DNA from: an uncultured virus (IMG/VR IMGVR_UViG_3300020171_002032)
Taxonomy: Duplodnaviria; Heunggongvirae; Uroviricota; Caudoviricetes
Reading direction: 5' to 3' (one strand)
IMG/VR virus record: IMGVR_UViG_3300020171_002032
DNA length: 20,000 bases
Shown: positions 177 to 20,000 of the stretch, piece after piece
Layout: each line of letters begins with the position of its first letter
Numbering within the stretch: position 1 is the first letter of the stretch
Position numbers and translations under genes: made by a program
The notes under the pieces: model-generated
What the model was told of the DNA's origin: nothing
Seen by the model: the letters and a program-made list of their open reading frames with translations, nothing else
Databases searched by the model: none

Positions 177-1010
177 TCACTCTCGCTCTTTCTTTTTAAC
201 AATCCAAAAGGCGCGGTAGTCAGGTGAGTTCGGGTATCCTTCAAACTTAACTTGCTCAGTTGCCACAGAATCAAATCTTGGAAGACTGTTGAGAACATCT
301 AGAATCGCGGTCTTTGTGTAGTAGCTCCAGTAAAAAGCGTGCCTGTAGCCTACTTCTGGTTTGATTTCGCTTATCTTATACGTACACTCTTTCAGTATGT
401 CAGTTCCTCTTCCGAAGAACCCTATCATCAAGACTTTTTTGGTGACTCTCCACATTTCCTCTAAAACTTTCTTGTAAGCATCTGGTGGTAAATGTATCAA
501 CATGTCCTTCTCATAGACGCTTGCGAATGACTCGTTTTGGAAGGGCAGTTTCTTTCCATCTCCCTGAACTATTGGCACATCTGGTGTGTGTTTGAGTGCT
601 CCTGCCAACAGTTTATAGGTCAAGTCTACGCCAACATATCGTAATCCAGCTTCTCGGTATAGTGGATAGTCGATGCATGTTGCACATCCCACGTCGAGAA
701 CAGAGTTGCCATTAGTTTTTGCTTCATCCCGAATTCTAACTCGAATCGGCTGTTCATGCGGGTCAATGCCTCTCATAAACATGTGGTCAACGAGAGGAGC
801 GTCTGACAGTTCCCACCACTTCTCAAGAACTGATTGTTCAGGATTATCGTACAGTATAGGTATTGACTGGCGAATCCAATAGGTCTTATTACAAGTTTGG
901 CAAGTCAGCGTTCCTTCCTCTATAATACCATTGTCTTCCTTAGAAACGTTCAATGTCAAGGAATGATGATCGTCTGGACAAGCCAGAACATCCATAAGCT
1001 GCCGATTCAT
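177..1010 (-). CDS. Trm112-like domain fused to a class I SAM-dependent methyltransferase (Methyltransf_11-like)
   Basis: N-terminus LMDVLACPDD..L.L......IEEGTLTCQTCNKTYWIRQSIPIL matches the Trm112 pattern. It is followed by motif I VLDVGCATC, YVGVDL, VQGDGKKLPF..ESF, and 'VLEEMWRV'. Confidence 0.88.
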   Translation of the reverse strand: MNRQLMDVLACPDDHHSLTLNVSKEDNGIIEEGTLTCQTCNKTYWIRQSIPILYDNPEQSVLEKWWELSDAPLVDHMFMRGIDPHEQPIRVRIRDEAKTNGNSVLDVGCATCIDYPLYREAGLRYVGVDLTYKLLAGALKHTPDVPIVQGDGKKLPFQNESFASVYEKDMLIHLPPDAYKKVLEEMWRVTKKVLMIGFFGRGTDILKECTYKISEIKPEVGYRHAFYWSYYTKTAILDVLNSLPRFDSVATEQVKFEGYPNSPDYRAFWIVKKKERE

Positions 1011-1014
1011 CAGA

Positions 1015-2256
1015 TCACGGAGGAGAAATATCTGAGAGCAGATTTATTAGTTCATCCCTAGCCTGTTCAATATCGGTTTTCGTCATTTGACACGTTTCAA
1101 CAACGACGTTGCCCTTGTGACACTTGCCGACCATACTGTATTGGGTTAGGTCTCTGGTTAAGATTTTAAGTCCATATTTTTCTGGAAAAGCCCATGCATC
1201 ACAGCCTGGATAAGGGGTAAATACGCTTACGTTCCAGAAGTCAGGGGGGCACTCTTTCAACAGTTTTTTGGTGTCTTCAACACTCTGCCATGTTTCTCCT
1301 GGGCTTCCGACAATTATTCCAACTTTCAATTGAATGCCTGAAGCTTTAGTCAGTTTCATAGCCTTCAAATTCTGTTTCACAGTCGATCCTTTACGTAGCC
1401 TATTCAAAACTTCTTGATTTCCACTTTCGACTCCCAGAATTAATTCCTTACATCCTGAGTCTCGCATGAGAGCCAAAACTTCACTGTCGATGGTGTCTAC
1501 ACGCGAAAGACATCGCCACACAATGTCCAATTTGGCAAACTCCCGACACAAAGACATGACTCGCGTTCTGTCAACACAAAAAGTATCGTCATGCCAATTG
1601 AAACCTCTATAACCCATGGTGGATATGACTTGCCTGATTTCTGCAACAATGTTTTCTACACTACGAAAGCGAACTTGCCTTAAAAAAACAACATGGGAAC
1701 CGCAGAAACAACAATTAAACTTGCAACCGCGACTGGAGATGATGCTGACTGCGGGAGCTAACAACTTCTTTCCCCAGTAGATGCCTCGCTTATATTTTGT
1801 CCAATCGATCAAATGGCGAGCTGGAAAAGGAACAGAATCCATATCGCTGACAGGTTCTCCGCGAAACACTAAGCGAGAACCGATGTGTGACTGTGGATTT
1901 GAAAGTATGCGAGTTAACGCTTTTTCTCCCTCACCTAACACAGCCAAGTCGAATTTAGAACTGTCAAAGTCTTCGGGAACTGCTGAAATATGTGGGCCTC
2001 CGAGAATTTTGAGTTTATCTGGATACTCTTTGAAGAGTCTATGACTCAGTTTAACAGTGGTGGGCCATTGAGGACTTGTTGATGTGACTGCATAAACATC
2101 TGCGTCTGGAAGTTTGTCTTCAAGAGTGTTCATGTCAACGATGCTTGCTTGCCACATGTTTTCTTCTGCAATGGCCGCTAGATACATTAGTGAGAAGGGG
2201 GGATCTAACTGTTCCATGAATGCTTGATAGGGTGGCGAGATAAAGCATATTTTCAT
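1015..2256 (-). CDS. Cobalamin-binding radical SAM protein (class B methyltransferase-like)
   Basis: N-terminal B12-binding region (PPFSLMYLAA, ILGGPHIS, VLGEGE), SSRGCKFNCCFC (CxxxCxxC), RFRSVENIVAEI, HDDTF, GVESG, IVGSPGET, FTPYPG. Confidence 0.93.
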   Translation of the reverse strand: MKICFISPPYQAFMEQLDPPFSLMYLAAIAEENMWQASIVDMNTLEDKLPDADVYAVTSTSPQWPTTVKLSHRLFKEYPDKLKILGGPHISAVPEDFDSSKFDLAVLGEGEKALTRILSNPQSHIGSRLVFRGEPVSDMDSVPFPARHLIDWTKYKRGIYWGKKLLAPAVSIISSRGCKFNCCFCGSHVVFLRQVRFRSVENIVAEIRQVISTMGYRGFNWHDDTFCVDRTRVMSLCREFAKLDIVWRCLSRVDTIDSEVLALMRDSGCKELILGVESGNQEVLNRLRKGSTVKQNLKAMKLTKASGIQLKVGIIVGSPGETWQSVEDTKKLLKECPPDFWNVSVFTPYPGCDAWAFPEKYGLKILTRDLTQYSMVGKCHKGNVVVETCQMTKTDIEQARDELINLLSDISPP

Positions 2257-3110
2257 TTCAGATCATCAATCAACTGTTTTAATCCTTCGAAGAGATGAGT
2301 TTTAGCTTGAAATCCATATACGGCTGCTTTGCTTACATTCAGCTCATTCCGTTTTGGATCTCCTTTCAGGGTTGAAACAACATGCTCAACCTTTACTGGT
2401 TTGTTTAGAAGCTGTTGGATCAATATGATTAACTCGTTTATCGATGTTGAAATACCAGTTCCAATGTCATATGTTCCGCTTGGAAACTTTCCTTCAACTG
2501 CTAGAACGACTGCTTCTGCAACATCGCTTACATATGTGAAATCTCTTGTCTGTTCGCCATCACCATTTACTTGGATAGTTTCACCTTTCAAGGCTTTGTC
2601 TAAGATGAGGTTTATGCTGGTTTTCTTTCTTCCCTTGCCGTAGATGCTTGAGAATCGAAAGATGACGGTTTGAAGTCCGTACAGATCATGAAAGAGCTTG
2701 AGGTAGCGTTCTGCACATAATTTGGAGACTCCATAGGGACTTATTGGTTCTGGATATTGATAGTTATTTCCATAGACTGCACCACTGCTACTGAAAAGGA
2801 CGTTGCAACCGTTTTTGCGGGCTACTTCAAGAACGTTTAGAGTTCCGATAATGTTTATCAAAGCATCTTCTTGCGGATTCTGCAATGATGGAGTCAAAAA
2901 TACTTGAGCGGCAAAATGAACGATCCATTGTGGCTTAATTTGCTGTACCTTTTCATTCAACGCTTCTACATCAAGTATATCATACCCTTCAACCAAATCA
3001 TAAGAAAAAGCTGTGTAACCACGTTTTTGCAGTGTTTCAATAACACATTTGCCTATAAAACCTGAACCGCCAGTACATAGGACGCTTATTTTTGACGCTT
3101 CTGAAATTAT
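2253..3110 (-). CDS. NAD-dependent epimerase/dehydratase (extended SDR); probable non-canonical ATA/ATT start
   Basis: The ORF-track call (to 2996) lacks the Rossmann motif, but the frame extends upstream through ISVLCTGGSGFIGK to ATA(3110-3108)/ATT(3107-3105), behind GGAGG at 3120-3116. Catalytic SSGAVYG and YGVSK, plus GDGEQTRDFTYVSD. Confidence 0.88.
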   Translation of the reverse strand: MISEASKISVLCTGGSGFIGKCVIETLQKRGYTAFSYDLVEGYDILDVEALNEKVQQIKPQWIVHFAAQVFLTPSLQNPQEDALINIIGTLNVLEVARKNGCNVLFSSSGAVYGNNYQYPEPISPYGVSKLCAERYLKLFHDLYGLQTVIFRFSSIYGKGRKKTSINLILDKALKGETIQVNGDGEQTRDFTYVSDVAEAVVLAVEGKFPSGTYDIGTGISTSINELIILIQQLLNKPVKVEHVVSTLKGDPKRNELNVSKAAVYGFQAKTHLFEGLKQLIDDLK

Positions 3111-4072
3111 AGTCCCCTCCTTACCTGATTGTACCAGTTCACATAACGGGTCAAACCTTCTTTGAATGGAACCTTGGGACGGTAGCCGTAGCTTTTAGCA
3201 AGGGTAATATCTGCAAGCAATCTTTTTATGTCATTGAATCTAGGTGGACCAAAGACAGGTTCGTGATGGTTGCCCCAAATCTCGTTCATAAGGTCAACAA
3301 GATCTAAAACGGAGTAATCCTCTCCATATCCTAGATTCACTATTTCACAGTTACTTAGTTTCGAAAGAAGTATCAGACCATCAACGGTGTCGCTTACATA
3401 TGTGAAGTCTCTGCTGTGGTGTCCATCACCAAAAATCACTGGCGGTTGATTCTTTTCAAATCGCTTAATAAATGCGGTGATGACACCAGCGTAGGCATTG
3501 AATCCTTTCATCAGCCTTTCCATATTCAAATCTTCACGTTGCAATGGCCCGAATGTATTGAAGGGTCTAATGATTACTGCTGGGACGTTGTAGGTTTCGT
3601 GGAAGAATTTGACGTAGCTTTCGCCGATTACTTTGGTTAGGGCGTAAAGGCTGTTAGGTCTTAACGGCGCAGTTTCCTTTATTGGAAAAACGTCTTGATC
3701 GCCGTACTCCTCGCTCGTACCTACAAAAATTATCTTGTTGTTGCATTCTTTGGCGGCTAGGCACACGTTGAATGTTCCTACATCGTTTGCTTGGTGTAGT
3801 TTTGCTGGGTCATCCATGCCGAGTACTAAGCATTGTGTTGCGAGATGGAATATGACATCGGCATGAGAGGCTAACTTTTTCACTGCGTCATAATGGGCGA
3901 TAGTGTCTATTACAATGTTCACTTTGTCTTGGACGTTTCCTAAATTCTTAGGGTCAGCAGCGCCAGATGACAAGTCATCTATAACGCTTACTTCATGTCC
4001 GTCTTCTACAAGTTTTCGAACTAGATGGCTTCCTATGAAACCAATTCCGCCTGTAACTACATATTTTGTCAT
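3107..4072 (-). CDS. NAD-dependent epimerase/dehydratase (NDP-sugar 4-epimerase/4,6-dehydratase family)
   Basis: VTGGIGFIGSHL, TSEEYG, YALTK (YxxxK), RPFNTFGP, GDGHHSRDFTYVSD. ATGA overlap with the upstream gene. Confidence 0.94.
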   Translation of the reverse strand: MTKYVVTGGIGFIGSHLVRKLVEDGHEVSVIDDLSSGAADPKNLGNVQDKVNIVIDTIAHYDAVKKLASHADVIFHLATQCLVLGMDDPAKLHQANDVGTFNVCLAAKECNNKIIFVGTSEEYGDQDVFPIKETAPLRPNSLYALTKVIGESYVKFFHETYNVPAVIIRPFNTFGPLQREDLNMERLMKGFNAYAGVITAFIKRFEKNQPPVIFGDGHHSRDFTYVSDTVDGLILLSKLSNCEIVNLGYGEDYSVLDLVDLMNEIWGNHHEPVFGPPRFNDIKRLLADITLAKSYGYRPKVPFKEGLTRYVNWYNQVRRGL

Positions 4073-5223
4073 ATAAACGTTCCTTCTTGGTATTTTGAGT
4101 TTCCATCTAATCTCTTATTTCTTTCTTCTTCTAGATTGCGTATGGTTTGATGAGTTTTCCAGTAATCGAAATGTTCTTTACTGCTATCGTGTCCAGTATA
4201 GCCTGCTTTATGTTCAAACGGATATTGCCAAGGATGTTCCTTTTTACACAGTTCTCTTATTGGACATCGTTGAGCGCACCAAATTTCTTTTATCCACTTT
4301 ATGTCTGCGTCCGTAAGGATTTTAGTGTTTGCTCTATACTGATTAAAGAATCTCGCATACCATATGAGTGGATAATTACATTTGATCGTTATTCCCTGTT
4401 TCTTCTGTTTTGAATTCCAATAGCTTACATCTGTCGGTATGCGAGCTAAAAATACGTCCCTAAAGAGTGCAAGTCTTGATCCATGACCAGCTAGATCTAA
4501 TCGTGCTCCTACGTCACAATCCAGTAACATGCGGTCTCCATCAAAATTCTGGTTAAAACCATTTATCTTCAGCATTGCTTCTAGACTGACTGAGGAGCAT
4601 CCGAACCACCAGAGCCATGGCATAGGAAAGATTTCTTGTTTTGGGTCTTTGAAGGCTGTGGTGTAGCGGTGTTCGATTGAAACTTTCTTGCCAGTGTATC
4701 CTGAAAGATTGTAGGGTATTGGCGTGGTGTTCTGTTCTGGGTAGGCAACTTTGTATTTTTCTTGTGCAGACTGCACATCAAGTCTTCCGCTTGTGTATTG
4801 GACTTCTGAAAACGAGTGATCATACATGTACCATGCTGACGGGAAGTAGCCTTGTTGGTAACGATTCCATAATCGTTCCATGAATTCAGGAACAACCATG
4901 TGACTGTCACCTGTGAAAAACAATAGTTCGCCATCAGCGTAAACTATGCCTTTGTTGTATTGAGTTGCAATGCCTGGGAAACCCTTCTCAATCCAATGGT
5001 TGGGTTTAGCTGGAATATGCTTCACTTTAAAGGGCAAAGTCATGTTCTTGAAATAGTCTTTACGTTGATCATAAAGCACATCAACGATTATCCATTCGCC
5101 CCAATCTTGCAATGTTTGATTCTTGAAACTTTCCAACGTAGGCTCAAAAACGTGAAGATCAGGTCTATTCAAGAAAGGAAAATTCTCCCGCGCAGTAACC
5201 ATGACAAAACTGACTTTCACCAT
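4069..5223 (-). CDS. GT-A fold (GT2-like) glycosyltransferase
   Basis: KVSFVMVT, EWIIVD, NKGIVYADGELLFFTGDS (degenerate DxD position), INGFNQNFDG..DCDVGARL. Cys/His-containing C-terminal extension. Confidence 0.78.
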   Translation of the reverse strand: MVKVSFVMVTARENFPFLNRPDLHVFEPTLESFKNQTLQDWGEWIIVDVLYDQRKDYFKNMTLPFKVKHIPAKPNHWIEKGFPGIATQYNKGIVYADGELLFFTGDSHMVVPEFMERLWNRYQQGYFPSAWYMYDHSFSEVQYTSGRLDVQSAQEKYKVAYPEQNTTPIPYNLSGYTGKKVSIEHRYTTAFKDPKQEIFPMPWLWWFGCSSVSLEAMLKINGFNQNFDGDRMLLDCDVGARLDLAGHGSRLALFRDVFLARIPTDVSYWNSKQKKQGITIKCNYPLIWYARFFNQYRANTKILTDADIKWIKEIWCAQRCPIRELCKKEHPWQYPFEHKAGYTGHDSSKEHFDYWKTHQTIRNLEEERNKRLDGNSKYQEGTFI

Positions 5224-5230
5224 TTCTGAG

Positions 5231-5983
5231 TTAGTCCAACCTTTGATAGATAATTATTGAATTCAGGAGCCAATTTCTGATTATTGAAGGGTCTACCAAG
5301 CTTATGAACCAGTTCACCATGTCCTTTCGAGGCATCCAATCTTCATGTTCAAGCTTGTCATACCACCACTGCTCCTTTTTGAGGCTGACATGACCAGCAG
5401 CCGCACACCCTTCCAACTGGATAGGAACGGGTTCACCTTTCTTGAGAATATATCCTTCTTCGTCTCTTCCTTGTAGGCCGCCAGATCCCGCAATGGCCGT
5501 TTGGAGGAAAATCCATTTTTTAGAAACCCGATGGAATTCGGATATTGCAAAGGGGATGTCATCCAAATATAAATGTTCGAGGAGATCCAACCCTGTTACT
5601 AGGTCGAAGCTTTTATCAGCATATAGCCATGGCTTGGTAGCGTCATGGACTTTTAGCCATTCGGGTTTGCATTTTGGGTATCTTCCTTCGTTTACGGCCC
5701 ATTCTGAGAAGTCGAAGCCGCATGCTTCTATACCAGCTTGTCTTGCATAAGCCGTAAGGGTTCCCCTACCACATCCAACATCTAGCATTGTATGACACTG
5801 AAAAATCTTTTTCCAAGCTTCGACAATCGCACCACATCCAGAACTCTCTCCATCAGGATTAAAATATCCCCAATGATCAATTTCGCCGTTTGCTCTTAAA
5901 AACGATTTACCTTGCGGATTCTTGAAATAGAATTCATCGTAGTAATCTGCGGTGAAAACCCTCGGAATGTCACTTTTACTCAT
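5231..5983 (-). CDS. Class I SAM-dependent methyltransferase
   Basis: MLDVGCGRG, GFDFSEWA, HDATKP, FDLVTGLDLLEHL, EFHRVS. Start reassigned to ATG 5983-5981 (TAATG overlap with the upstream stop, GGAG RBS) instead of 6121. Confidence 0.88.
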   Translation of the reverse strand: MSKSDIPRVFTADYYDEFYFKNPQGKSFLRANGEIDHWGYFNPDGESSGCGAIVEAWKKIFQCHTMLDVGCGRGTLTAYARQAGIEACGFDFSEWAVNEGRYPKCKPEWLKVHDATKPWLYADKSFDLVTGLDLLEHLYLDDIPFAISEFHRVSKKWIFLQTAIAGSGGLQGRDEEGYILKKGEPVPIQLEGCAAAGHVSLKKEQWWYDKLEHEDWMPRKDMVNWFISLVDPSIIRNWLLNSIIIYQRLD

Positions 5984-6933
5984 TAATTCGACATCTCCAT
6001 AGTTTCGAGGAATATTTCTTTGTTTTCTTTTTCCATGTTTTTCAATTTCTCGCTCCCATACTTTTGATGCATGTCCTGAAATGCTTTTACCTTTGGATAG
6101 TTGATTAAAGCTGTTGGACATACTTTGAACGGAATATTATATGATGCTGCCCAGACTAGGGCGTGATATCTTCCGCCTGAGATGACTTTTTTGCTTTGAG
6201 AGATTGCATATTTGACTTTTCTTGGGCTGAATCCATCTGTCTCTAGGATTTGGCTGTGTTTGATTTTGCAGTTTAATTCTCTGCAAAGGGCAAGATCCAC
6301 TGGAACGCCTTCCCTATTGTAGGGTGCGAAGGGTATCAGTAGCACTTCGTCTCCATCACTTAGTTGCGATGTGATCCATTTTAACTGTGGATCGTTGCTT
6401 CCAAAGTCCTCATATCTTGGACAGACTGCTACCATGTTTTTTTGGCAATCATATTTTTCTTCTTTGAGGTTTATGCTTGGACACATGGTTAACGTTGACT
6501 TTACCCCGATTTCCTCTGCTATTTTCTGGCTGTGTTCATCTCGAACCGTTATGGCGTTGAACTGACTTAGAAATTCCCTGTAGAGGTTCTTCATTTTTGG
6601 ATGAAATATCTGGTGAGTGTCATAGCCTACACCGTAATTCATGGAAGGCTTGTTCGCAGCGAAAGCTGTGAGTGCCTGTCGCCAGCCGAATCCCCAGCTT
6701 AATGCTCCTCCGCCTAAGAGAAAAACATCGTAATCGTCTCTAAAGTCGTATACGTGTCGAACTTCCTGTAGTGTAGGCATTCTTCTTCTGTATTCTTCTG
6801 CAAACAGCCAAGGCAAATTTGTGCAGACAATATACTCGTTGTCTTTGCCTAAACTATCCATAATGGATAACAGGATTCCTTCGTCGCCGCTTGAACCCCA
6901 TCCCAGAAAGGCTGTGATGCAGATGCGAGCCAC
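5983..6933 (-). CDS. Polysaccharide pyruvyl transferase family protein (CsaB/WcaK-like)
   Basis: GWGSSGDEGIL (cf. GxxNxGDxAI), FLLGGG, YGVG, ITVRDEHS, ISGGRYHALVWA..NIP are characteristic PS_pyruv_trans motifs. GTG start. Confidence 0.88.
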   Translation of the reverse strand: MARICITAFLGWGSSGDEGILLSIMDSLGKDNEYIVCTNLPWLFAEEYRRRMPTLQEVRHVYDFRDDYDVFLLGGGALSWGFGWRQALTAFAANKPSMNYGVGYDTHQIFHPKMKNLYREFLSQFNAITVRDEHSQKIAEEIGVKSTLTMCPSINLKEEKYDCQKNMVAVCPRYEDFGSNDPQLKWITSQLSDGDEVLLIPFAPYNREGVPVDLALCRELNCKIKHSQILETDGFSPRKVKYAISQSKKVISGGRYHALVWAASYNIPFKVCPTALINYPKVKAFQDMHQKYGSEKLKNMEKENKEIFLETMEMSN

Positions 6934-7005
6934 ATTTTTTCCTTCTTTTTTAGTAACGATAGTTTTATATCTTCACGTTGATTAATATGTCTTGCTGTTC
7001 AACAA
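6934..7005. promoter_or_regulatory. Divergent promoter region of the glycan cluster
   Basis: 72-bp AT-rich gap between divergent operons, with TTTTATAT (6963-6970) and TTAATA (~6982-6987, ~24 nt before the ATG at 7006, compatible with a leaderless mRNA). Confidence 0.55.
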
Positions 7006-7245
7006 ATGTCCACGAAATTACCGAGAGAAATATTGGAGAAAGCAGTCAACTTGAGAAATTCTGTTCGCAAAATATACATTGCCCTCTACATCAATAACAA
7101 ACCATCAACATCACAAGAAATAGCACAGCTAGTCGGTCAAGCGCGAGCACATGTGAACATGAGACTCCAACAACTTGTCGATATGAATCTAGTGACAGTG
7201 GAACGTAAGGGAAGAACCAAATACTTCGAGGTTAAAAAACCATGA
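7006..7245 (+). CDS. Winged helix-turn-helix transcriptional regulator (ArsR/TrmB-like)
   Basis: 79 aa: KIYIALY....STSQEIAQLVGQARAHVNMRLQQLVDMNLVTVERKGRTKYFEV is a typical wHTH with beta-wing. ATGA overlap with the following GT4. Confidence 0.88.
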   Translation: MSTKLPREILEKAVNLRNSVRKIYIALYINNKPSTSQEIAQLVGQARAHVNMRLQQLVDMNLVTVERKGRTKYFEVKKP

Positions 7246-8474
7246 GAATCCTTGAGATTGGAGATAAAATAACCAGCGGAACTTCAGCTTACTCTAAGCT
7301 AGGCGAAGAAATTTGTACCCGCTTAGTTGCAATGGGGCATCAAGTTGCTCACACTCCAATTGGCAGAGCTAACAAAATGGGAAAGCAAGCATACCGTGGA
7401 GTATTGATCTATCCAAGCGGAGACGACTATTTTGCAGAGGATGTTGCTCTAGCAAACTACACTGATTTCAAAGCGGATCTGCTTATCGCCATAAAGGACA
7501 CTTGGATCTGGAACCATGTGCATCGCCTAGGAATCAACTTCTGCCCGTTTGCAGTGGTCGATCATACTCCAGTGAGCCAATCAATAATTTTTCGCCTAGA
7601 AACCGCGTTCAAAACAATTGCCATATCAAGATTTGGTCAAATCGAGCTTAACCGAAAGAAAATAAACTCAGTGTATATTCCGCATGGCGTAAGATGCGAT
7701 CTGTATAAGCCACTCACGCCAGAACAGAAAGTTGAAGCACGAAGACTGTTCGGGCTACCTCAAGACGCATTCGTAGTCGGAATCGTTGCGATGAATCGCG
7801 CTAGAAAGCTTATTCCACGAATGTTACGCGGATTCAAACGTTTTAGAGATCTGAACCCTGATGTAAACGCTCACATGATGCTATGGACAAATATTCAGCC
7901 GAGAAGACCTGCTGAAGATGTTACGTTAGGAGTTTCAGATGTGGGAGTAAACCTCATCCCAGAAATTCTTGCATTAGACCTAAACGAAGTCGTACATTGG
8001 CCAAACTGGGAAGACATAGAAAAAATAGGCGGATTACCTGAATACAATCCAAGCGGAACATGGGACATGACGAAACTTTACGGCACTTTTGACGTTAACT
8101 TTCTCTGTAGTGGCGGTGAAGCGGTTGGCCTCCCGTACCTTGAAGCGGCGAGCTGCGCCGTCCCCTCAATCGGCACAAATTATGCAGGGGCACCTGAACA
8201 TATTGGCCCTGGCTTGACTGTTTCATGGCATGACTACACAATATTCAACACTCCAGGAGTACGTTACGTGTTGCCTGACATTGACGGCATGGCTGAAGCT
8301 CTCAAGAAAATATATGACATGGATAGGGAGAAGCTTGGCAGAAAATGTCGAAAGTTCGCTGAAACCTACGATTGGAATGTTGTCATGTCCGACTTTTGGG
8401 TTCCGTTTCTTAGACAATGTAGCGATGAGCTGTATCCTCTTATCACAAAACAGGGGGCAAAGTCATGGGCTTGA
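7242..8474 (+). CDS. GT4 family glycosyltransferase
   Basis: AISRFG, YIPHGV, FVVGIVAMNRARK, SGGEAVGLPYLEAASCAVPSIGT (EX7E motif), YDW near the C-terminus. Confidence 0.92.
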   Translation: MRILEIGDKITSGTSAYSKLGEEICTRLVAMGHQVAHTPIGRANKMGKQAYRGVLIYPSGDDYFAEDVALANYTDFKADLLIAIKDTWIWNHVHRLGINFCPFAVVDHTPVSQSIIFRLETAFKTIAISRFGQIELNRKKINSVYIPHGVRCDLYKPLTPEQKVEARRLFGLPQDAFVVGIVAMNRARKLIPRMLRGFKRFRDLNPDVNAHMMLWTNIQPRRPAEDVTLGVSDVGVNLIPEILALDLNEVVHWPNWEDIEKIGGLPEYNPSGTWDMTKLYGTFDVNFLCSGGEAVGLPYLEAASCAVPSIGTNYAGAPEHIGPGLTVSWHDYTIFNTPGVRYVLPDIDGMAEALKKIYDMDREKLGRKCRKFAETYDWNVVMSDFWVPFLRQCSDELYPLITKQGAKSWA

Positions 8475-9517
8475 ATGTGGGTCTTATAACGACGTGGGCG
8501 CAACGATGCGGAATAGCTAGTTACTCCGCTAACCTTGCAAACGCATTGGCAAAACAGGATGTAAATGTCTACATTATTCGGATACCGCGGTTCGGTTACA
8601 AAGATCCAGCAGTATTTCAGAACATAGTTGACTCAATACCGCTTGACAAGATAGATCTGATTAGCTGTCAACATGAATATGGCCTCTACTCTGGTCTTGA
8701 CAGAGGCTTATTTTCCAGTTTAAAGCGACTGGGCAAACCGTTAGTCACGACTTTACATGCAGTAGGCAACTATGACGTGGATAACCTTATCCTTGAAGCA
8801 AGTGATCGGGTCATTGTTCACAATGATTACTGTCACAAACGATTATGGTACAACAAGAAGGCGACTGTGATACCTCACGGAATGACTCCCATGCTGACTC
8901 CTCCACCACCGAAAGAAGAGTGCAAGAAACGTGTTGGGATTCAGCCGAATACGCAGATAGTAGGCTACCTTGGATTCATAAGCAGCTACAAGGGATTGGA
9001 AACGCTCATTGAAGCAATGACTAAAATTCCAAATGTCGGGTTACTTATTGGAGGAGGATGGTTCATAGAAGCAGAACCTCAATACATCGTGGACCTGAAA
9101 GAGAAGTCACTGAATAAACTGCCTAACCGAGTTCAGTGGCTAGGCTTCATTCCAGATGAAGACTTGAACATGGTATATGGGGCAATGGACATTATCGTGT
9201 ACCCATCAATCACAATGACAGAATCAGGTGCTCTTCTCACAGCGTTGAGTTACGGAAAAGCAGTGATCACACGGAATCTTCCGCCAACAAGAGAAAAAGC
9301 GAAACATGGAGCGTTAATGCTGTTCAATAATGCGGATGATTTAGCAAGGAAGATCAAACATTTGCTTAAAGACAATGATCATCGCCTCATCCTTGAGGAA
9401 GGAGCCAAAAAATACAGTCAAGAAAACAGTTGGGCCAACATTGCGCTTCGTCACATACAACTTTACCAAGAAGTTTTAAGTCTCAGAAGTGAAGGCGACT
9501 TACCAAAAACCCAATAA
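8465..9517 (+). CDS. GT4 family glycosyltransferase
   Basis: CGIASYS, QHEYGLY, VTTLH, VIVH, IPHG, GFISSYKGLETLIEA, DIIVYPS..ESGALLTALSYGKAVI, SW..IA..H..LY. Confidence 0.92.
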   Translation: MGLNVGLITTWAQRCGIASYSANLANALAKQDVNVYIIRIPRFGYKDPAVFQNIVDSIPLDKIDLISCQHEYGLYSGLDRGLFSSLKRLGKPLVTTLHAVGNYDVDNLILEASDRVIVHNDYCHKRLWYNKKATVIPHGMTPMLTPPPPKEECKKRVGIQPNTQIVGYLGFISSYKGLETLIEAMTKIPNVGLLIGGGWFIEAEPQYIVDLKEKSLNKLPNRVQWLGFIPDEDLNMVYGAMDIIVYPSITMTESGALLTALSYGKAVITRNLPPTREKAKHGALMLFNNADDLARKIKHLLKDNDHRLILEEGAKKYSQENSWANIALRHIQLYQEVLSLRSEGDLPKTQ

Positions 9518-9837: not shown

Positions 9838-9882
9838 TACATTGAAACACGGTTAATTTGTTTTAACAGCGTGTTTTGTTGC

Positions 9883-11637: not shown

Positions 11638-11772
11638 ATGACTTGCCCATGTAAAAATACCTGCTCTTTCTACAGACCCGACGACTACAAATGCAGTCAC
11701 GAACCATCTACGGATGATAAGTCCTCGCTCTACTGCAAGCACTATACCCAATTGACAGGCAAAAACAGTTAA
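11638..11772 (+). CDS. Small Cys-rich protein (44 aa), possible metal-binding
   Basis: MTCPCKNTCSFYRPDDYKCSHEPSTDDKSSLYCKHYTQLTGKNS starts 7 nt after the stop of 11112-11630 and fills the gap. Below the ORF-track cut-off. Confidence 0.6.
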   Translation: MTCPCKNTCSFYRPDDYKCSHEPSTDDKSSLYCKHYTQLTGKNS

Positions 11773-11798
11773 CTCTCCTTAACCGCAATCATGAATGT

Positions 11799-14115: not shown

Positions 14116-14136
14116 TGTAACAGTTACATGGTTACA
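14116..14136. promoter_or_regulatory. Perfect palindrome TGTAAC-A-GTTACA plus an extra GTTACA half-site over the RBS/start codon (putative operator)
   Basis: 14116-14128 is a perfect inverted repeat between the GAGGTG RBS and ATG 14128. Third half-site at 14131-14136. Confidence 0.55.
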
Positions 14137-14997
14137 GTCGATTCCCTCAGAAAAAGAGTCTACGACGTATGGGTTCAAAATCCATATATTCAAGCTCTAG
14201 ATACATGTAAAAAATTAGGTCTGACCTATGTTGATCATGGTCAATACATCCGAAATCTCTTGAGTCAGTTTCGGTCTTATTACCAGTTTGGTTCACCCCA
14301 AAAAGCCCATAATTTTCCGAAGCATCGTGTTTTTGAGTGGGAGAAGGTGCCGCGTGAGTTGTTGCCTGGTGAGGGGGAGTTGGAGAAGCGTTTGACTGCG
14401 TGGGGTTGGAAGCGTGTTGTGAATAGGAATGATATGTGGAGTTTTCGGGATCCTTTTGGGCAGGGGTCGGTTCATTGGTATGTTGGTGGTCTTGTTCGGC
14501 TTTATTTGAGGGGTGAGTTGCAGTTTGCTAAGGGTAAGGAATTGTTTTGCAGGGCCTTTCGCTGGTTTGATGCTAATGATTTGCGGAAGTATCTTGATGT
14601 TCCGTTAGTGGAGAAGTATCGGAAATGGACGTTTGAGATGGGTCAGCCAGTTCCGAGGTTTGATATTAGGCAATTTGAGCGTAGTCATGGATTGACGATT
14701 TTTAGTGATGGTTCGGACCCTACGAGTATTCATGTAGGAGAATCGATACCTTTTTGGCTCGATGAACAACGAGAAGCTACTAAAGAATTGGGTGTTGTTG
14801 TTAGAGAATTCGGGTATGATATTAAGGAGCACTTGAAGTTGATCACTGGCGCTCAAGATTTTGTGAAAGAGGTGTATGAAGAGGCTAAGGAGTGGAGGCA
14901 GGAGAGGAAGATGTCGCAGTTAAAACAGATTAAGCGAATGGAAAAACATGTTGAAGCCTCTCAGAAGAGCATTCTTGATTGGGTTGGAAAGGGTTGA
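14128..14997 (+). CDS. Hypothetical protein, possible N-terminal HTH and C-terminal coiled coil
   Basis: 289 aa with GAGGTG RBS. LRKRVYDVWVQNP.IQALDTCKKLGL...YIRNLLSQFR is HTH-like; alpha/beta core; charged helical tail. Confidence 0.78.
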   Translation: MVTVDSLRKRVYDVWVQNPYIQALDTCKKLGLTYVDHGQYIRNLLSQFRSYYQFGSPQKAHNFPKHRVFEWEKVPRELLPGEGELEKRLTAWGWKRVVNRNDMWSFRDPFGQGSVHWYVGGLVRLYLRGELQFAKGKELFCRAFRWFDANDLRKYLDVPLVEKYRKWTFEMGQPVPRFDIRQFERSHGLTIFSDGSDPTSIHVGESIPFWLDEQREATKELGVVVREFGYDIKEHLKLITGAQDFVKEVYEEAKEWRQERKMSQLKQIKRMEKHVEASQKSILDWVGKG

Positions 14998-16632: not shown

Positions 16633-16704
16633 TTTGTTCCATATATCGTATAGCTGTTCGTCATTTAATTGTTATTCCTAATACACGGCATCGATTCGGT
16701 GCAG

Positions 16705-16938
16705 TTAATGAGGTTTAACTGCGCCTATGGTCGCGGTAATGTTCTCCTTTATCTTACAACTAGGACATTGAATCCAGACTTGGCCATTCTCATCTTTCCA
16801 AGCATCCATTTTCACAGTTTTTCCTTCTTTCATACAAGAGCGACAAACGTAATCCCATGTGAGATATTCGCCCCAACGTTCATTATGATCTTTATGAGTA
16901 AAAGTATATGCACAGATTGGATGAGTCTTGATTGGCAA
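16705..16938 (-). CDS. Small zinc-finger protein
   Basis: CRSC ... CPSC. TTG start behind AAGGTGG. Confidence 0.72.
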   Translation of the reverse strand: MPIKTHPICAYTFTHKDHNERWGEYLTWDYVCRSCMKEGKTVKMDAWKDENGQVWIQCPSCKIKENITATIGAVKPH

Positions 16939-16966
16939 TGCAGTTAAGCCACCTTAAACGAAAACA

Positions 16967-17221
16967 CTATTCTTTGAACTGCCTCTTAGTTTCATCGCCA
17001 ATATTTGATCCTATAATAAAACCTTTCTTGAAGAATTCCTCCATGGTCAATACGCCTGACTGTAAGCCAGCATGTAGCTCTGGTAGTTTGACGAGTAATT
17101 GATTCACAAGTTGGGTCAGTAGCTCCTTAATATAGGCTTCAAGAGCCTCTTCCTTGATATCCTTCTTTGCAAAAAGTTGAACGACCTCTCTTGGGACTTC
17201 AACTTCAAGAGTGATTTTCAT
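16967..17221 (-). CDS. Small hypothetical protein (possible ribbon-helix-helix-like N-terminus)
   Basis: AGGAG RBS. MKITLEVEVPREVVQLF is a beta-strand then helix pattern. Confidence 0.7.
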   Translation of the reverse strand: MKITLEVEVPREVVQLFAKKDIKEEALEAYIKELLTQLVNQLLVKLPELHAGLQSGVLTMEEFFKKGFIIGSNIGDETKRQFKE

Positions 17222-17260
17222 AGAATCACATGCTCCTATTACCTCTGCGGTTATAAGAAC

Positions 17261-17350
17261 TTAACTGCGTCGCCTTTTTGGACAGTTGCCTCTTCCTCTT
17301 CCTGTTCGTGGGCCTTTCCCATTTGGCCCAGTGCCGTCATGATTCGGAAT
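17261..17350 (-). CDS. DUF5320-like Gly/Arg-rich peptide (29 aa) with ATT start
   Basis: (M)PNHDGTGPNGKGPRTGRGRGNCPKRRRS matches the DUF5320 N-terminal signature MPxxDGTGPxGxGPxTGRGxGxC. ATT sits at the Met position, 7 nt after GGAGG (17362-17358), with no in-frame ATG/GTG/TTG upstream. Confidence 0.75.
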   Translation of the reverse strand: MPNHDGTGPNGKGPRTGRGRGNCPKRRRS

Positions 17351-17366
17351 ATTATCGCCTCCTGAA

Positions 17367-17567
17367 TTATTTGGTTGCGTAGTACAGTCCTACTATGACG
17401 AGTGCTATGCCTCCAGCAATAGCAATGTAAGACCAGGTGTTGTTGGATGATAATGAGGCTGTTCCATAGTGTCTAGCGAGGCGTTCTTCATCTGTTCTGG
17501 GATATCCATATCTTCGTTCTCCAGCTCTACCAGTCTGTAGACCTGTTCCTTTGGTTGGTAGACTCAT
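17367..17567 (-). CDS. Small protein with a basic N-terminus and C-terminal TM helix
   Basis: MSLPTKGTGLQTGRAGERRYGYPRTDEERLARH...WSYIAIAGGIALVIVGLYYATK. Confidence 0.75.
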   Translation of the reverse strand: MSLPTKGTGLQTGRAGERRYGYPRTDEERLARHYGTASLSSNNTWSYIAIAGGIALVIVGLYYATK

Positions 17568-17654
17568 AAAATCAACCAATACGAAGGTATGAGAAGGTTA
17601 GAATTTAGATGTTTCCTTTAGATTCTAAACTGCTCTTAAATAGTGTTAACCGCA

Positions 17655-17834
17655 TTATTCTGTCGGGCACTTGAGCCTTTCTTTAACACGCAAAAACTCA
17701 TCTAGAAACTCCAAGTCCCTACGAAACTTGTCATAATCAGACTTGAAGTAGTGATCTAAAACCTCAACAAGCATTCTCGTCTCAATCTGACCAAAACATT
17801 GACATACGAATTTCTTTTGTTCAGCGGCATCCAT
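17655..17834 (-). CDS. Small hypothetical protein (59 aa)
   Basis: MDAAEQKKFVCQCFGQIETRMLVEVLDHYFKSDYDKFRRDLEFLDEFLRVKERLKCPTE. Overlaps the upstream stop; below the ORF-track cut-off. Confidence 0.62.
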   Translation of the reverse strand: MDAAEQKKFVCQCFGQIETRMLVEVLDHYFKSDYDKFRRDLEFLDEFLRVKERLKCPTE

Positions 17835-17991
17835 ATTCTAGAGCTTCCCGTGCCATTTTCATCTGTTCTTCAAGTGGTTTTTTCAGATATTCTTCAAAAA
17901 GTCGTTTTAAACGCTCTAAGGCCTCTTGCTCTCTAGATTTCATTTCCTCTGATTGAGTTCGAAGTCTGAGAAGACAGTCTGCTTCAGACAT
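17821..17991 (-). CDS. Small helical hypothetical protein (56 aa)
   Basis: MSEADCLLRLRTQSEEMKSREQEALERLKRLFEEYLKKPLEEQMKMAREALEYGCR. Fills the gap in the same-strand gene run. Confidence 0.6.
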   Translation of the reverse strand: MSEADCLLRLRTQSEEMKSREQEALERLKRLFEEYLKKPLEEQMKMAREALEYGCR

Positions 17992-18070
17992 ATGATCCAC
18001 ACTTTACGCATATGGTATTTCTGAGGTAAAAGGTTATCTGCACACGCTTATAGGCATTTAACCGCGCGAA

Positions 18071-18832
18071 CTAAATGAAGGCCGTGAGTTTTTCTGGTAT
18101 TGTTGCAAGACGCTTCTGTGCGATTTCGACATATTTAGAGCTAATATCGATCCCGATGAAATATCGTTTTAGTTTTCTACACGCGATAGCTGTCCATCCG
18201 ACACCTATGCAAGGATCTAGAACACAATCGTTCTCCAGTAAATAGGTTTTGACCAAGTATTCGGCAAGTTCAACGGGTTTTTCAGTAGGGTGCAAGGCTA
18301 CTGAGGAATGGGGTTTAGGTATGGAGATTATTGAAGTTGGATGCTTAAAGTAACCATCTCTTTCGGAATTGTCAACTTCTTTATGTTCTCCATAATTTCT
18401 ACGAGCGACGCGGAGTTTAGTTCCTCTACTATGACTTTTCTGACCTGCCACTTTCTGAGGAAAATAACGCGCTGTTTTTTCATAGAAGATCAGGATGTGT
18501 TCATGCACTCTTAATGGCATTTTATTAGCGTTTAGAAATCCTGAAACAAGGATTTTGTTCCAAATCAAGTCATACTTGAACCAGCTTCTATTTGAAAGAA
18601 TAAGGTCAATAGTGTAAGGAAACTGGGATGTAAGAATGACTGTTCCAGTATCAGGTTTTAGAAGACGTTTCCATTGGCCCCATAAGAGATCTAACGGAAG
18701 CTTGATGTCTTCTCTATTTTGAGTCACTCCATAAGGCAGATCGGTGAGAATTAAATCGATACTTTTCTCAGGGAGATCCTTCATTACTTCTAGGCAGTCA
18801 CCACAGATTATTTGATTTACGGGTAGCTCCAA
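18071..18832 (-). CDS. Orphan DNA methyltransferase, N6-adenine/N4-cytosine (beta class)
   Basis: IICGDCLEVMK, IDLILTDLPY (motif IV), HEHILIF, HPTEKP, VLDPCIGVGWT (variant motif I), FIGIDIS..Y..IAQKRL. No adjacent restriction endonuclease. Confidence 0.93.
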   Translation of the reverse strand: MELPVNQIICGDCLEVMKDLPEKSIDLILTDLPYGVTQNREDIKLPLDLLWGQWKRLLKPDTGTVILTSQFPYTIDLILSNRSWFKYDLIWNKILVSGFLNANKMPLRVHEHILIFYEKTARYFPQKVAGQKSHSRGTKLRVARRNYGEHKEVDNSERDGYFKHPTSIISIPKPHSSVALHPTEKPVELAEYLVKTYLLENDCVLDPCIGVGWTAIACRKLKRYFIGIDISSKYVEIAQKRLATIPEKLTAFI

Positions 18833-18846
18833 TATCCAACCTTCGT

Positions 18847-19554
18847 TTAATTAGATATATCCGCGTGGTGTTCTGGATGCCAGCTCTTTTCGCCACTCGC
18901 CATGTCGATGAGAATCCATCTTCCATCTTTAGCCTTGCAGAAGTCTACGGACCAGTAGCCTTGGAATTGTTGAGCTACGATTTCCGCATAGTGAGTGAGA
19001 AGTTCGATTTCTTCTTTGGTTTCAGTATTGAGTTTCTTTGAGACTTTCCTCCAATCTGGGATGCTCGGTTCCTTTGAATCAGCTATTGCTTCTTCAATCC
19101 AGTACGGATGATGACAAACGACTTTTCCATCTTTAATGAAGTATCGTCTTTCAGGGTTTACGGGCATGTCGCCATAGAAAGCGGTAAATCCACTGTCCAT
19201 TGGGATATACTCTCGAACTACGAGCGCTTTGAAGTTCAAGCCCATGATATCTGCGCAAAGGTTGAAAGAGACAACCTCGAAAATATGACTCCATAACTCG
19301 TCGGGCTTATCTACAAAACAGGATTTTTTCCAGTCATGTTTGCCACTTGCGAGATCTGTTCTGAGGAAACATGGGTAGCCCATTTTGTCGCAAAGAGGTT
19401 TGACTCCTTTAACCAGAACATCAGGAACATTTTCGTTAATCAGGCTCTTCAATTCTCTTTCGTTTAAAATGAGAATTTCAGTCTTTGGTTGTGGGATAGG
19501 CAGATTCTTGATTTTCGGATACCAGACCAACATACTATCAGATTCGACTTTCAT
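18847..19554 (-). CDS. ATP-grasp fold protein (R2K/Cdc123-like clade)
   Basis: PCFLRTD..SGKHDW, LVVREYI, ERRYFI.DGKV, WSVDF, WILIDM match ATP-grasp motif order. GAGG RBS. Confidence 0.72.
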   Translation of the reverse strand: MKVESDSMLVWYPKIKNLPIPQPKTEILILNERELKSLINENVPDVLVKGVKPLCDKMGYPCFLRTDLASGKHDWKKSCFVDKPDELWSHIFEVVSFNLCADIMGLNFKALVVREYIPMDSGFTAFYGDMPVNPERRYFIKDGKVVCHHPYWIEEAIADSKEPSIPDWRKVSKKLNTETKEEIELLTHYAEIVAQQFQGYWSVDFCKAKDGRWILIDMASGEKSWHPEHHADISN

Positions 19555-19589
19555 AATTCAACCTCATTCATCGCTTAATGCACATTATC

Positions 19590-19942
19590 TGATGGACTTT
19601 TAGGGAGGCTGTAGCCCTCAAGCTTCATACCTTCTCCAGACACACCACGAAGCACACGCTAACACATCTAGTACCCATGTCGATTGGACATTATGTGTTT
19701 CTGCTAACGATTAGCAGTCGTGGCTGGCTCTCTGGGACTCCCTGACACCCTCTGGATTATGAGACCAGTTGTGTCTTCGGGTGCCGAGCGCCTTCCAACA
19801 CCTACTAATGGTGTTTTAGCACCTTAAGATGGTGCTTTGAACCTCCTTCACCGATGGTTCTTAGTTCCTCCTAGGGTTTAGGAACGTAGTAGCTCCGACA
19901 GAAGCTACTTTGGCCTAGTCTGCTAGAGGACACCAACCTCAC
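19590..19942 (-). ncRNA. Putative structured non-coding RNA or long structured 5' leader (unassigned family)
   Basis: No ORF >=60 aa. At least 9 hairpins, including five back-to-back. A G-U wobble in the 19888-19909 stem works only on the minus strand. BRE/TATA about 29 nt upstream. Confidence 0.6.
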
Positions 19943-19962
19943 TCTAGAGATTGTTGTTGGAT

Positions 19963-19979
19963 AATAAAAGGCTTTTTGC
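19963..19979 (-). promoter_or_regulatory. Archaeal BRE+TATA promoter (GCAAAAAGCCTTTTATT) driving the structured region
   Basis: Same motif as 9822-9837 except for one extra A. Predicts a start near 19940. Confidence 0.62.
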
Positions 19980-20000
19980 GCTTATACCACGTTAACTGCA

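What the first reader, a model, noticed from the sequence alone, without database searches (positions are those of the whole stretch)
19797..19909. Five back-to-back hairpins with 21-25 nt period and a repeated ACCAU..AGGU motif with a compensatory change
Seen (minus strand): AGUAGCUUC-UGUC-GGAGCUACU, GUUCCU-N10-AGGAAC, GAACC-AUCGGUGAAGGA-GGUUC, AGCACC-AUCUUAA-GGUGCU and AACACC-AUUAGUA-GGUGUU, joined by only 2-3 nt, mostly A-rich linkers. The last three share ACCAU...AGGU. The last two differ by a G-C to A-U compensatory pair and have different loops. Inference: a degenerate stem-loop array under selection for structure, e.g. repeated protein-binding sites (a CsrB-like sponge), packaging signals, or units processed into small RNAs with variable loops.
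Basis: partly seen in the sequence, partly recalled or inferred. Interest (0 to 1): 0.72.

Follow-up and report, generated by a model that had tools for sequence, protein, structure and literature searches.

The report
Hairpin array in an ORF-less viral cassette
Five neighbouring hairpins are really there and fold unusually well, and they sit in a gene-sized stretch with no protein gene that differs between close relatives of an uncultivated groundwater mobile element or virus, but no relative carrying them was found, so what they do is still a guess.

Summary
The five hairpins lie at 19797-19909 (minus strand) exactly as described and fold far better than shuffles (-47.1 kcal/mol, z -4.32, 0 of 200). 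Counting five hairpins is not rare under loose rules (46 of 100 shuffles reach 5). It is rare under rules matched to the weakest stem (0 of 200 reach even 4).

The array is the core of a ~427-nt ORF-free gap (19555-19981) between the end of an upstream ORF and an R2K.3 ATP-grasp gene. The gap is bounded by two copies of a 22-bp dyad motif. That motif recurs at about 10 mostly intergenic sites in the window (17 strand-hits against 1.97 expected). In other samples, contigs identical in the flanks diverge exactly at these two sites.

No Rfam family, tRNA or homologue was found. The searches covered phages, plasmids, viral contigs, and about 436 kb of loci fetched for other reasons.

Best reading (0.45): an accessory, strain-variable cassette transcribed into a structured minus-strand RNA. 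Its function is unknown. The CsrB-like, packaging and small-RNA readings have no support. Conservation and covariation could not be tested.

The parts
19888..19909 (-). Hairpin H1: 9-bp stem (one U.G pair), UGUC loop
   Evidence: MFE and centroid
19864..19885 (-). Hairpin H2: 6-bp stem, 10-nt loop; the 3' arm is part of UAGGAGGAAC (ribosome-binding-site-like)
19839..19860 (-). Hairpin H3: 5-bp stem, 12-nt loop (2 inner pairs possible); the 3' side reads GAAGGAGGUUC
   Evidence: D4 shows 82% similarity to the ATP-grasp RBS region
19818..19836 (-). Hairpin H4: 6-bp stem, 7-nt loop AUCUUAA
19797..19815 (-). Hairpin H5: 6-bp stem, 7-nt loop AUUAGUA; resembles H4 with one G-C to A-U double change
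   Evidence: (D3)
19930..19957 (-). 5' hairpin H0 (CAAUCUC/GAGGUUG core); its 3' arm repeats the ATP-grasp RBS motif UGAGGUUG
   Evidence: D9 (91% over 11 nt)
19726..19792 (-). Long irregular hairpin 3' of the array
   Evidence: (window 19720-19845, z -4.1)
19647..19721 (-). Three-way domain containing the perfect hairpin CUGCUAA-UCG-UUAGCAG
19593..19977 (-). ORF-less structured cassette, variable between relatives
   Evidence: 7-11 stops in each of 6 frames; z -3.35, 1 of 100; junctions at 19592/19593 and 19969-19977
19978..19999 (-). Site A: copy of the 22-bp dyad motif GCAGTTAA-N6-ATAAGCGC; overlaps the stop (TAA 19982-19984) of the upstream ORF
19571..19592 (-). Site B: degenerate copy of the same motif (TCAGATAA-N6-TTAAGCGA), 16 nt before the ATP-grasp ATG
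   Evidence: (D2)
18847..19554 (-). Downstream gene: R2K clade family 3 ATP-grasp
   Evidence: PF14243, E 7.8e-12

Best explanation
The five hairpins are the central domain of a ~385-nt ORF-less cassette (19593-19977). The cassette lies in a run of small minus-strand gene cassettes on an uncultivated groundwater mobile element or virus. Each cassette is bounded by the same 22-bp dyad DNA motif, probably a promoter/operator-type site. Here the cassette holds no protein gene, only a stretch that folds into about 8 helical domains. I read it as transcribed on the minus strand, either as a stand-alone non-coding RNA or as a long structured leader of the ATP-grasp / DNA-methylase genes. It appears to be an accessory module that relatives swap by recombination at the bounding motifs. 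Each of H0-H5 pairs a purine tract that resembles this element's ribosome-binding sites (GAGGUUG, GGAG, AGGAGG, GGAGGU, AAGGUG, AGGUG) with a pyrimidine-rich partner. My committed but inferred mechanism is an RNA scaffold that presents or masks RBS-like sites. It would then act as a decoy for an RBS-binding factor, or as a stability or insulator element. Shown: the hairpins, the lack of any ORF, the flanking motifs, and the variant junctions. Inferred: transcription, strand and function.
For: Structure: z -4.32, 0 of 200; rank 1 of 317; neighbouring windows rank 3 and 8; 0 of 200 shuffles reach 4 under strict rules; whole cassette z -3.35, 1 of 100. Strand: the minus-strand RNA fold is -47.1 against -41.9 for the plus strand. 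H1 has a U.G pair that becomes a mismatch on the plus strand. All nearby genes are on the minus strand. Non-coding: no ORF of 30 aa or more on the minus strand and 7-11 stops per frame. Cassette context: the dyad motif gives 17 strand-hits against 1.97 expected, 0 of 200 shuffles, and 8 against 0.99. Another cassette bounded by the motif (16701-16961) holds a 77-aa ORF and is not structured (z 0.13). Real DNA: an independent DNA run (X2, another study) covers 18800-19958 with 0 differences. Variability: contigs from RNA libraries that are identical over 19433-19592 diverge at 19588-19592. One 627-nt contig keeps 19572-19592 and 19977-20000 with 535 other letters between them. RBS likeness: D9 and D4, and the upstream regions listed.
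Against: No homologue was found, so there is no evolutionary test of the stems. The region is replaced in close relatives, which also fits a spacer under no constraint. No contig of the three RNA libraries laid covers 19620-19947, so transcription of this variant is not shown. No sigma-70-like promoter or intrinsic terminator was found in 19300-20000. Loose hairpin chains of 5 are common in shuffles, and one coding window reaches a similar z. The junction evidence rests on short anchors (21-24 nt, side 22) at 85% likeness, and the tool warns that such joints can mislead.
Confidence: 0.45

Rival explanations
1. A non-functional variable spacer. It would be sequence left between two recombination-prone motifs, such as remains of earlier cassettes and of RBS regions, whose hairpins are a by-product of purine/pyrimidine-tract composition and local duplication.
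For: Close relatives replace the region. No homologue was found anywhere searched. Short similarities link the array to the ATP-grasp RBS region (D4, D5, D6, D9). Loose chains of 5 hairpins occur in 46 of 100 shuffles. A coding window has z -5.3.
Against: 0 of 200 shuffles reach the fold energy. 0 of 200 reach a chain of 4 under strict rules. Three of the eight best-folding minus-strand windows lie in this gap. All stems are intact despite differing sequences. The control cassette is unstructured.
Confidence: 0.25
2. A cis-acting leader only. The array would be part of the 5' untranslated region of the ATP-grasp/methylase operon and would control its translation. H0's CAAUCUC can pair either with its own GAGGUUG or with the identical RBS motif of the ATP-grasp gene.
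For: In the 446-nt fold the 5' part of the region pairs with the ATP-grasp RBS region. UGAGGUUG occurs both in H0 and at the RBS (D9). No terminator lies between the array and the gene.
Against: Site B, a copy of the motif that precedes other genes, lies between the array and the gene. Of 53 ATP-grasp relatives examined, 34 have less than 100 nt between the gene and the nearest upstream plus-strand ORF of 80 aa or more, and none has a similar leader. Variants with an identical gene start carry other sequence upstream.
Confidence: 0.15
3. A DNA-level element. The inverted repeats would be protein-binding sites (H4 and H5 are 15-bp palindromes CACC-N7-GGTG whose centres lie 21 bp apart, two helical turns), or hairpins extruded in single-stranded DNA at an origin or recombination site.
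For: Folded as DNA, both strands form the same five hairpins with similar scores (z -3.86 and -3.55). The array lies between two copies of a clear DNA dyad motif. The H4/H5 core is identical.
Against: The five stems have different sequences, so only H4 and H5 share a half-site. The paired changes and the U.G pair fit base pairing better than protein contacts. The region is dispensable in relatives. No iterons or AT-rich tract were found.
Confidence: 0.1
4. One reading: a CsrB/RsmZ-type sponge, a packaging signal, or an array processed into 21-25 nt small RNAs.
For: Spacing of about 21-25 nt between hairpins and repeated SD-like purine motifs recall CsrB/RsmZ (recalled, not tested by a call).
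Against: No Rfam match even at E up to 10. GGA lies in 1 of 5 loops, and the purine motifs are in stems. No CsrA-like or other RNA-binding domain was found in the window. The units are too unlike for TRF.
Confidence: 0.05

Closest known systems
PeSL-bounded cassettes in the hyperplastic regions of T4-type phages (Arbiol et al. 2010, PMC2839356; abstract and outline read)
   Same: A short conserved regulatory motif recurs between small non-essential genes. Insertions, deletions and replacements between close relatives have their junctions at that motif.
   Different: The motif here is a 22-bp dyad (GCRGTTAA-N6-TTAAYYGC), not a sigma-70 promoter plus terminator stem-loop; none was detected. The cassette of interest holds no ORF. 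The host and virus type are unknown.
CsrB/RsmY/RsmZ protein-sponge RNAs
   Same: A several-hundred-nt non-coding RNA made of many short hairpins about 20-25 nt apart, with SD-like purine motifs (features of the family recalled).
   Different: No covariance-model match. The purine motifs are paired in stems rather than exposed in loops. No CsrA gene was seen in the window.
REP/BIME clusters of enterobacteria
   Same: Clusters of short extragenic palindromes between genes of one transcription direction, variable among strains (features of the family recalled).
   Different: The array's hairpins are not copies of a unit found elsewhere in the 20 kb. The element that does recur in the window is the separate 22-bp dyad motif, which is a better REP analogue than the array.
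ToxI-type (type III antitoxin) repeat RNAs
   Same: A tandem array of short structured units in a mobile, conflict-related context (recalled).
   Different: The units here are not near-identical repeats (TRF finds none). The period is 21-25 nt rather than about 36. The neighbouring gene is an ATP-grasp, not a ToxN-like nuclease.

Membership tests
CsrB/RsmZ-type sponge RNA | Match to the curated covariance models | tested here: not met
   no such hit at gathering score or at E up to 10 over 19300-20000
CsrB/RsmZ-type sponge RNA | GGA motifs exposed in most hairpin loops or linkers | tested here: not met
   Reading the fold, GGA lies in the loop of H3 only (1 of 5). In H1 and H2 it lies in the stem
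CsrB/RsmZ-type sponge RNA | Cognate CsrA/RsmA protein in the genome | tested here: inconclusive
   None among the 25 distinct window ORFs scanned against Pfam. The rest of the genome and the host are not held
REP/BIME | The same palindromic unit repeated at many extragenic sites | tested here: not met
   The H4/H5 core occurs only here in the 20 kb. Model R1 hits only itself in 406,700 bases. Genome-wide testing is not possible
ToxI-like type III antitoxin array | Near-identical tandem direct repeats beside a ToxN/AbiQ-type endoribonuclease gene | tested here: not met
   TRF finds 0 rows at minimum score 30. The downstream gene is an R2K.3 ATP-grasp
PeSL-like cassette boundary (flanking motif, not the array) | A conserved motif recurring between small genes | tested here: met
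   17 strand-hits against 1.97 expected, 0 of 200 shuffles; sites flank a 77-aa ORF
PeSL-like cassette boundary (flanking motif, not the array) | Composed of a sigma-70 promoter plus a terminator stem-loop | tested here: not met
   0 promoter-like and 0 terminator-like sites in 19300-20000
PeSL-like cassette boundary (flanking motif, not the array) | Indel or replacement junctions between close relatives lie at the motif | tested here: inconclusive
   divergence at 19588-19592 and at 19969-19977, but the anchors are only 21-24 nt and the sequences are contigs, not reads
Any Rfam 15 family / tRNA | Covariance-model or ARAGORN match | tested here: not met

The most novel reading that the evidence does not exclude
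An uncultivated, possibly archaeal, virus carries a swappable ORF-less cassette under its own promoter/operator motif. The cassette would encode a ~380-nt decoy RNA with six hairpins, each presenting a copy of the element's own ribosome-binding-site motif paired to an anti-SD-like strand. Such an RBS-mimic sponge would titrate a translational repressor, an RBS-cleaving or RBS-binding host defence factor, or 30S subunits during infection.
Probability: 0.1. Interest if true: 0.7.

Novelty: new variant of a known kind. Interest (0 to 1): 0.38.

Why it matters
If the cassette is transcribed, this would be a non-coding RNA occupying a slot that normally holds small accessory protein genes in a modular, recombining region of a mobile element. 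That would show that such regions trade RNA genes as well as ORFans. The RBS-like hairpins give a concrete hypothesis that can be tested. As it stands, the array is one orphan sequence with no relatives, so its value is as a lead and not as a result.

Tried and rejected
1. The window's own genome is not held, and a 30-mer from the window end is absent from viral contigs. The sequence beyond 20000 was therefore never seen.

2. Similarity searches of the gap and of 17000-20000 against phages and plasmids found nothing.

3. Loci of ATP-grasp relatives were fetched: 2 viral, 80 kept of 86 metagenomic and 2 genomic.
- blastn found only matches of 19 nt or less at E 1.7 or higher, and nhmmer found none, over the 82 loci then held.
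- CM R1 found only itself plus one hit at E 1.5, and nothing in 7 more loci.
- Synteny upstream of the gene is not kept.

4. Pattern scans of viral contigs led nowhere.
- The double H4/H5 pattern hit one coding low-complexity repeat, L083.
- The H1 pattern hit two coding sequences, L107 and L108. The weak R1 scores there (15.2 bits or less) come from the searched hairpin itself.
- The 3' hairpin pattern found nothing.
- The 20-nt flank pattern hit four coding sequences.
- The dyad motif hit 17 single-site loci and no related genome.

5. The first idea about sites A and B, that they were merely chance 75% repeats, was dropped. The idea that they are sigma-70 promoters has no support.

6. The three RNA libraries laid give no cover over 19620-19947. 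Absence in contigs says nothing about expression.

7. MAFFT could not align the four units in register. The pair comparison was made by reading.

8. Earlier-findings look-ups returned nothing, and one was malformed.

9. An anticodon-loop likeness of the H4 loop (U at loop position 2, CUU, AA) was considered. It was dropped as unsupported, since H5 has U where a purine is expected and no tRNA was found.

10. Paper searches for tandem-hairpin phage RNAs found nothing (0 papers) or nothing bearing on this, judged from the listing.

Full report
**1. The observation**

Linkers are 2-3 nt and start-to-start spacing is 24, 25, 24 and 21 nt. ViennaRNA predicts all five in both the MFE and the centroid structure of a 126-nt piece (-47.1 kcal/mol; 200 dinucleotide shuffles -31.2 +/- 3.7; z -4.32; none as good). 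It predicts them again when the 385-nt or 446-nt surroundings are folded.

The plus strand folds less well (-41.9, z -3.53). This is because H1 has a U.G pair that becomes an A/C mismatch on the plus strand. With DNA parameters the two strands score much alike.

**2. Is it more than chance?**

Four controls give a mixed but overall positive answer.
- GC-regressed MFE of 3976 sliding windows puts the array first, by a small margin (-3.36 sd against -3.19 for a coding region at 4821-4946).
- Shuffle z-scores for 317 minus-strand windows put it first (z -5.5 with 40 shuffles). Neighbouring windows 19720-19845 and 19657-19782 rank 3 and 8. A coding window at 18271-18396 reaches -5.3.
- Counting back-to-back hairpins under loose rules is not exceptional. 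Whole-window shuffles reach a chain of 5 or more in 46 of 100, and of 6 or more in 10 of 100.
- Under rules matched, after the fact, to the weakest real stem, no shuffle exceeds a chain of 3 (0 of 200), while the real window has 5.

The array is therefore real and unusual for the strength of its stems, not for their number.

**3. Internal repeats**

H4 and H5 share CACC-AU-N5-GGUG, which occurs nowhere else in the 20 kb. ACCAU-N(3-10)-AGGU occurs six times against 0.99 expected, three of them in the array.

Reading the pair list, H2-H5 all end in C-G, C-G at the loop. They differ at the other stem positions by about four double changes with no broken pair. This looks like covariation, but the evidence is weak for three reasons. 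The units were chosen because they are hairpins. TRF finds no tandem repeat. The 74-80% unit similarities (D1 and D3) are no stronger than other short matches in the same 600 nt, which are probably chance.

**4. Setting**

An ORF on the minus strand runs in from beyond the window and stops at TAA 19982-19984. The next gene starts at 19554 and is an R2K clade family 3 ATP-grasp (PF14243, E 7.8e-12). It is followed by an N6/N4 DNA methylase. Burroughs et al. 2015 (PMC4431377, passages read) proposed that R2K.2 and R2K.3 families take part in phage-host conflicts.

The 427 nt between the two genes have 7-11 stops in every frame, of mixed kinds. No Rfam family matches, even at E up to 10, and there is no tRNA. 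The centroid fold has eight domains: H0, H1-H5 and two larger 3' domains. The whole cassette scores z -3.35 (1 of 100 shuffles as good).

**5. Flanking motif**

The gap is bounded by two copies of a 22-bp dyad motif with consensus GCRGTTAA-N6-TTAAYYGC. Site A is 19978-19999. Site B, more degenerate, is 19571-19592.

The motif gives 17 strand-hits at up to 2 mismatches against 1.97 expected (0 of 200 shuffles), and 8 against 0.99 in a shorter form. About ten sites result, mostly intergenic: 9849, 11765, 14916 (this one within the 3' end of ORF 14128-14997), 16701, 16940, 17247, about 17632, about 18044, 19571 and 19978. Two of the coordinates were off by 4 and are corrected here by reading.

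In the 16.6-20 kb minus-strand cluster, a site precedes each small gene. The pair 16701/16940 flanks a 77-aa Cys-rich ORF whose region is not structured (z 0.13). The array therefore sits where a small gene would normally be.

**6. Variation among relatives**

Public runs hold the stretch in groundwater metagenomes, and hold parts of it in sediment metatranscriptome libraries. An independent DNA run (X2, another study) covers 18800-19958 with no difference, so the array is not an assembly artefact.

In the RNA libraries, contigs identical to the window over 19457-19592 and 19433-19588 continue with other letters above 19588-19592. One 627-nt contig matches 19572-19592 and 19977-20000 with 535 other letters between them, where the window has 384. 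Another joins 19592 to 19969. These anchors are sites B and A.

The anchors are short (21-24 nt) and the likeness threshold was 85, so I treat this as a good hint and not as proof that the cassette is exchanged at the motif. The pattern resembles what Arbiol et al. 2010 (PMC2839356, abstract and outline read) describe for PeSL motifs in T4-type phages.

**7. Search for relatives**

None carries the array. See Tried and rejected for the full list. The closest ATP-grasp relative is 67% identical. Of 53 relatives examined, 34 have less than 100 nt between the gene and the nearest upstream plus-strand ORF of 80 aa or more, 10 have 100-300 nt, 8 have more, and 1 has no such ORF.

**8. Reading**

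The six hairpins H0-H5 each carry a purine tract in their 3' arm that resembles the ribosome-binding sites upstream of this element's genes (GAGGUUG before the ATP-grasp, AAGGUUGG before the methylase). Two short similarities link H0 and H3 to the ATP-grasp RBS region (D9 and D4).

I therefore favour a transcribed, structured, accessory RNA whose hairpins present or mask RBS-like sites (0.45). The rivals are:
- a plain variable spacer (0.25);
- a cis-acting leader only (0.15);
- a DNA-level element (0.10);

Transcription, RNA ends and any partner are inferred and not shown.

**9. Verdict**

This is a real and unusually well-folding hairpin array in an ORF-less, strain-variable cassette. It is an orphan with no known family and no tested function. 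It is of moderate interest as a lead.

Noticed in passing
window 9849-9870, 11765-11786, 14916-14937, 16701-16722, 16940-16961, 17247-17268, ~17632-17653, ~18044-18065, 19571-19592, 19978-19999: A 22-bp dyad motif, GCRGTTAA-N6-TTAAYYGC, recurs at about ten mostly intergenic sites (17 strand-hits against 1.97 expected). The spacer length is constant and half-site symmetry is 5-8 of 8 positions. It looks like the operator of one dimeric regulator or a REP/PeSL-like boundary. It is absent from all 89 loci then held.
   Followed up: partly
window 19588-19593 and 19969-19977: Contigs from other samples are identical to the window on one side of these points and different on the other. One contig has 535 other letters in place of the window's 384. 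The gap looks like a swappable slot.
   Followed up: partly
window 19982-20000 (minus strand): The ORF that enters from beyond the window ends ...AVNVV*. A chance pattern hit (L085) ended in a similar ...NAVTVNVIKAI... tail, which I recall as typical of C5 DNA methyltransferase C-termini. Five residues are too few to judge.
   Followed up: no
window 16705-16938 (minus strand): A 77-aa ORF with CxxC...CxxC spacing (zinc-ribbon-like) lies exactly between two dyad-motif sites. It was missed by the 100-aa ORF list.
   Followed up: no
window 19559-19569 vs 19934-19944; 19557-19573 vs 19837-19853: The ATP-grasp ribosome-binding region (GAAUGAGGUUG) is nearly repeated in hairpin H0 and resembles the loop and 3' arm of H3 (D9 at 91% and D4 at 82%).
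   Followed up: partly
window 18271-18396 (minus strand): A window inside the DNA methylase gene has a shuffle z of -5.3 although its MFE is only -26.1. This may be a local mRNA structure or a low-GC artefact.
   Followed up: no
window 177-9517: The left half of the window is a polysaccharide-type biosynthesis block: B12-binding radical SAM, SAM methyltransferases, two NAD epimerase/dehydratases, a pyruvyl transferase and two group-1 glycosyltransferases. This is unusual beside the phage-like small-ORF cluster.
   Followed up: no
L088, L089 (genome contigs); L017: The only two genome-collection relatives of the ATP-grasp lie on MAG contigs labelled Woesearchaeota and Archaeoglobus. One metagenomic relative lies on a 496,664-bp contig. 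The host domain of the window is therefore open.
   Followed up: no
L095:1501-1658: An unrelated viral contig has five AGTGCAGTTAA copies within 160 nt, which looks iteron-like.
   Followed up: no
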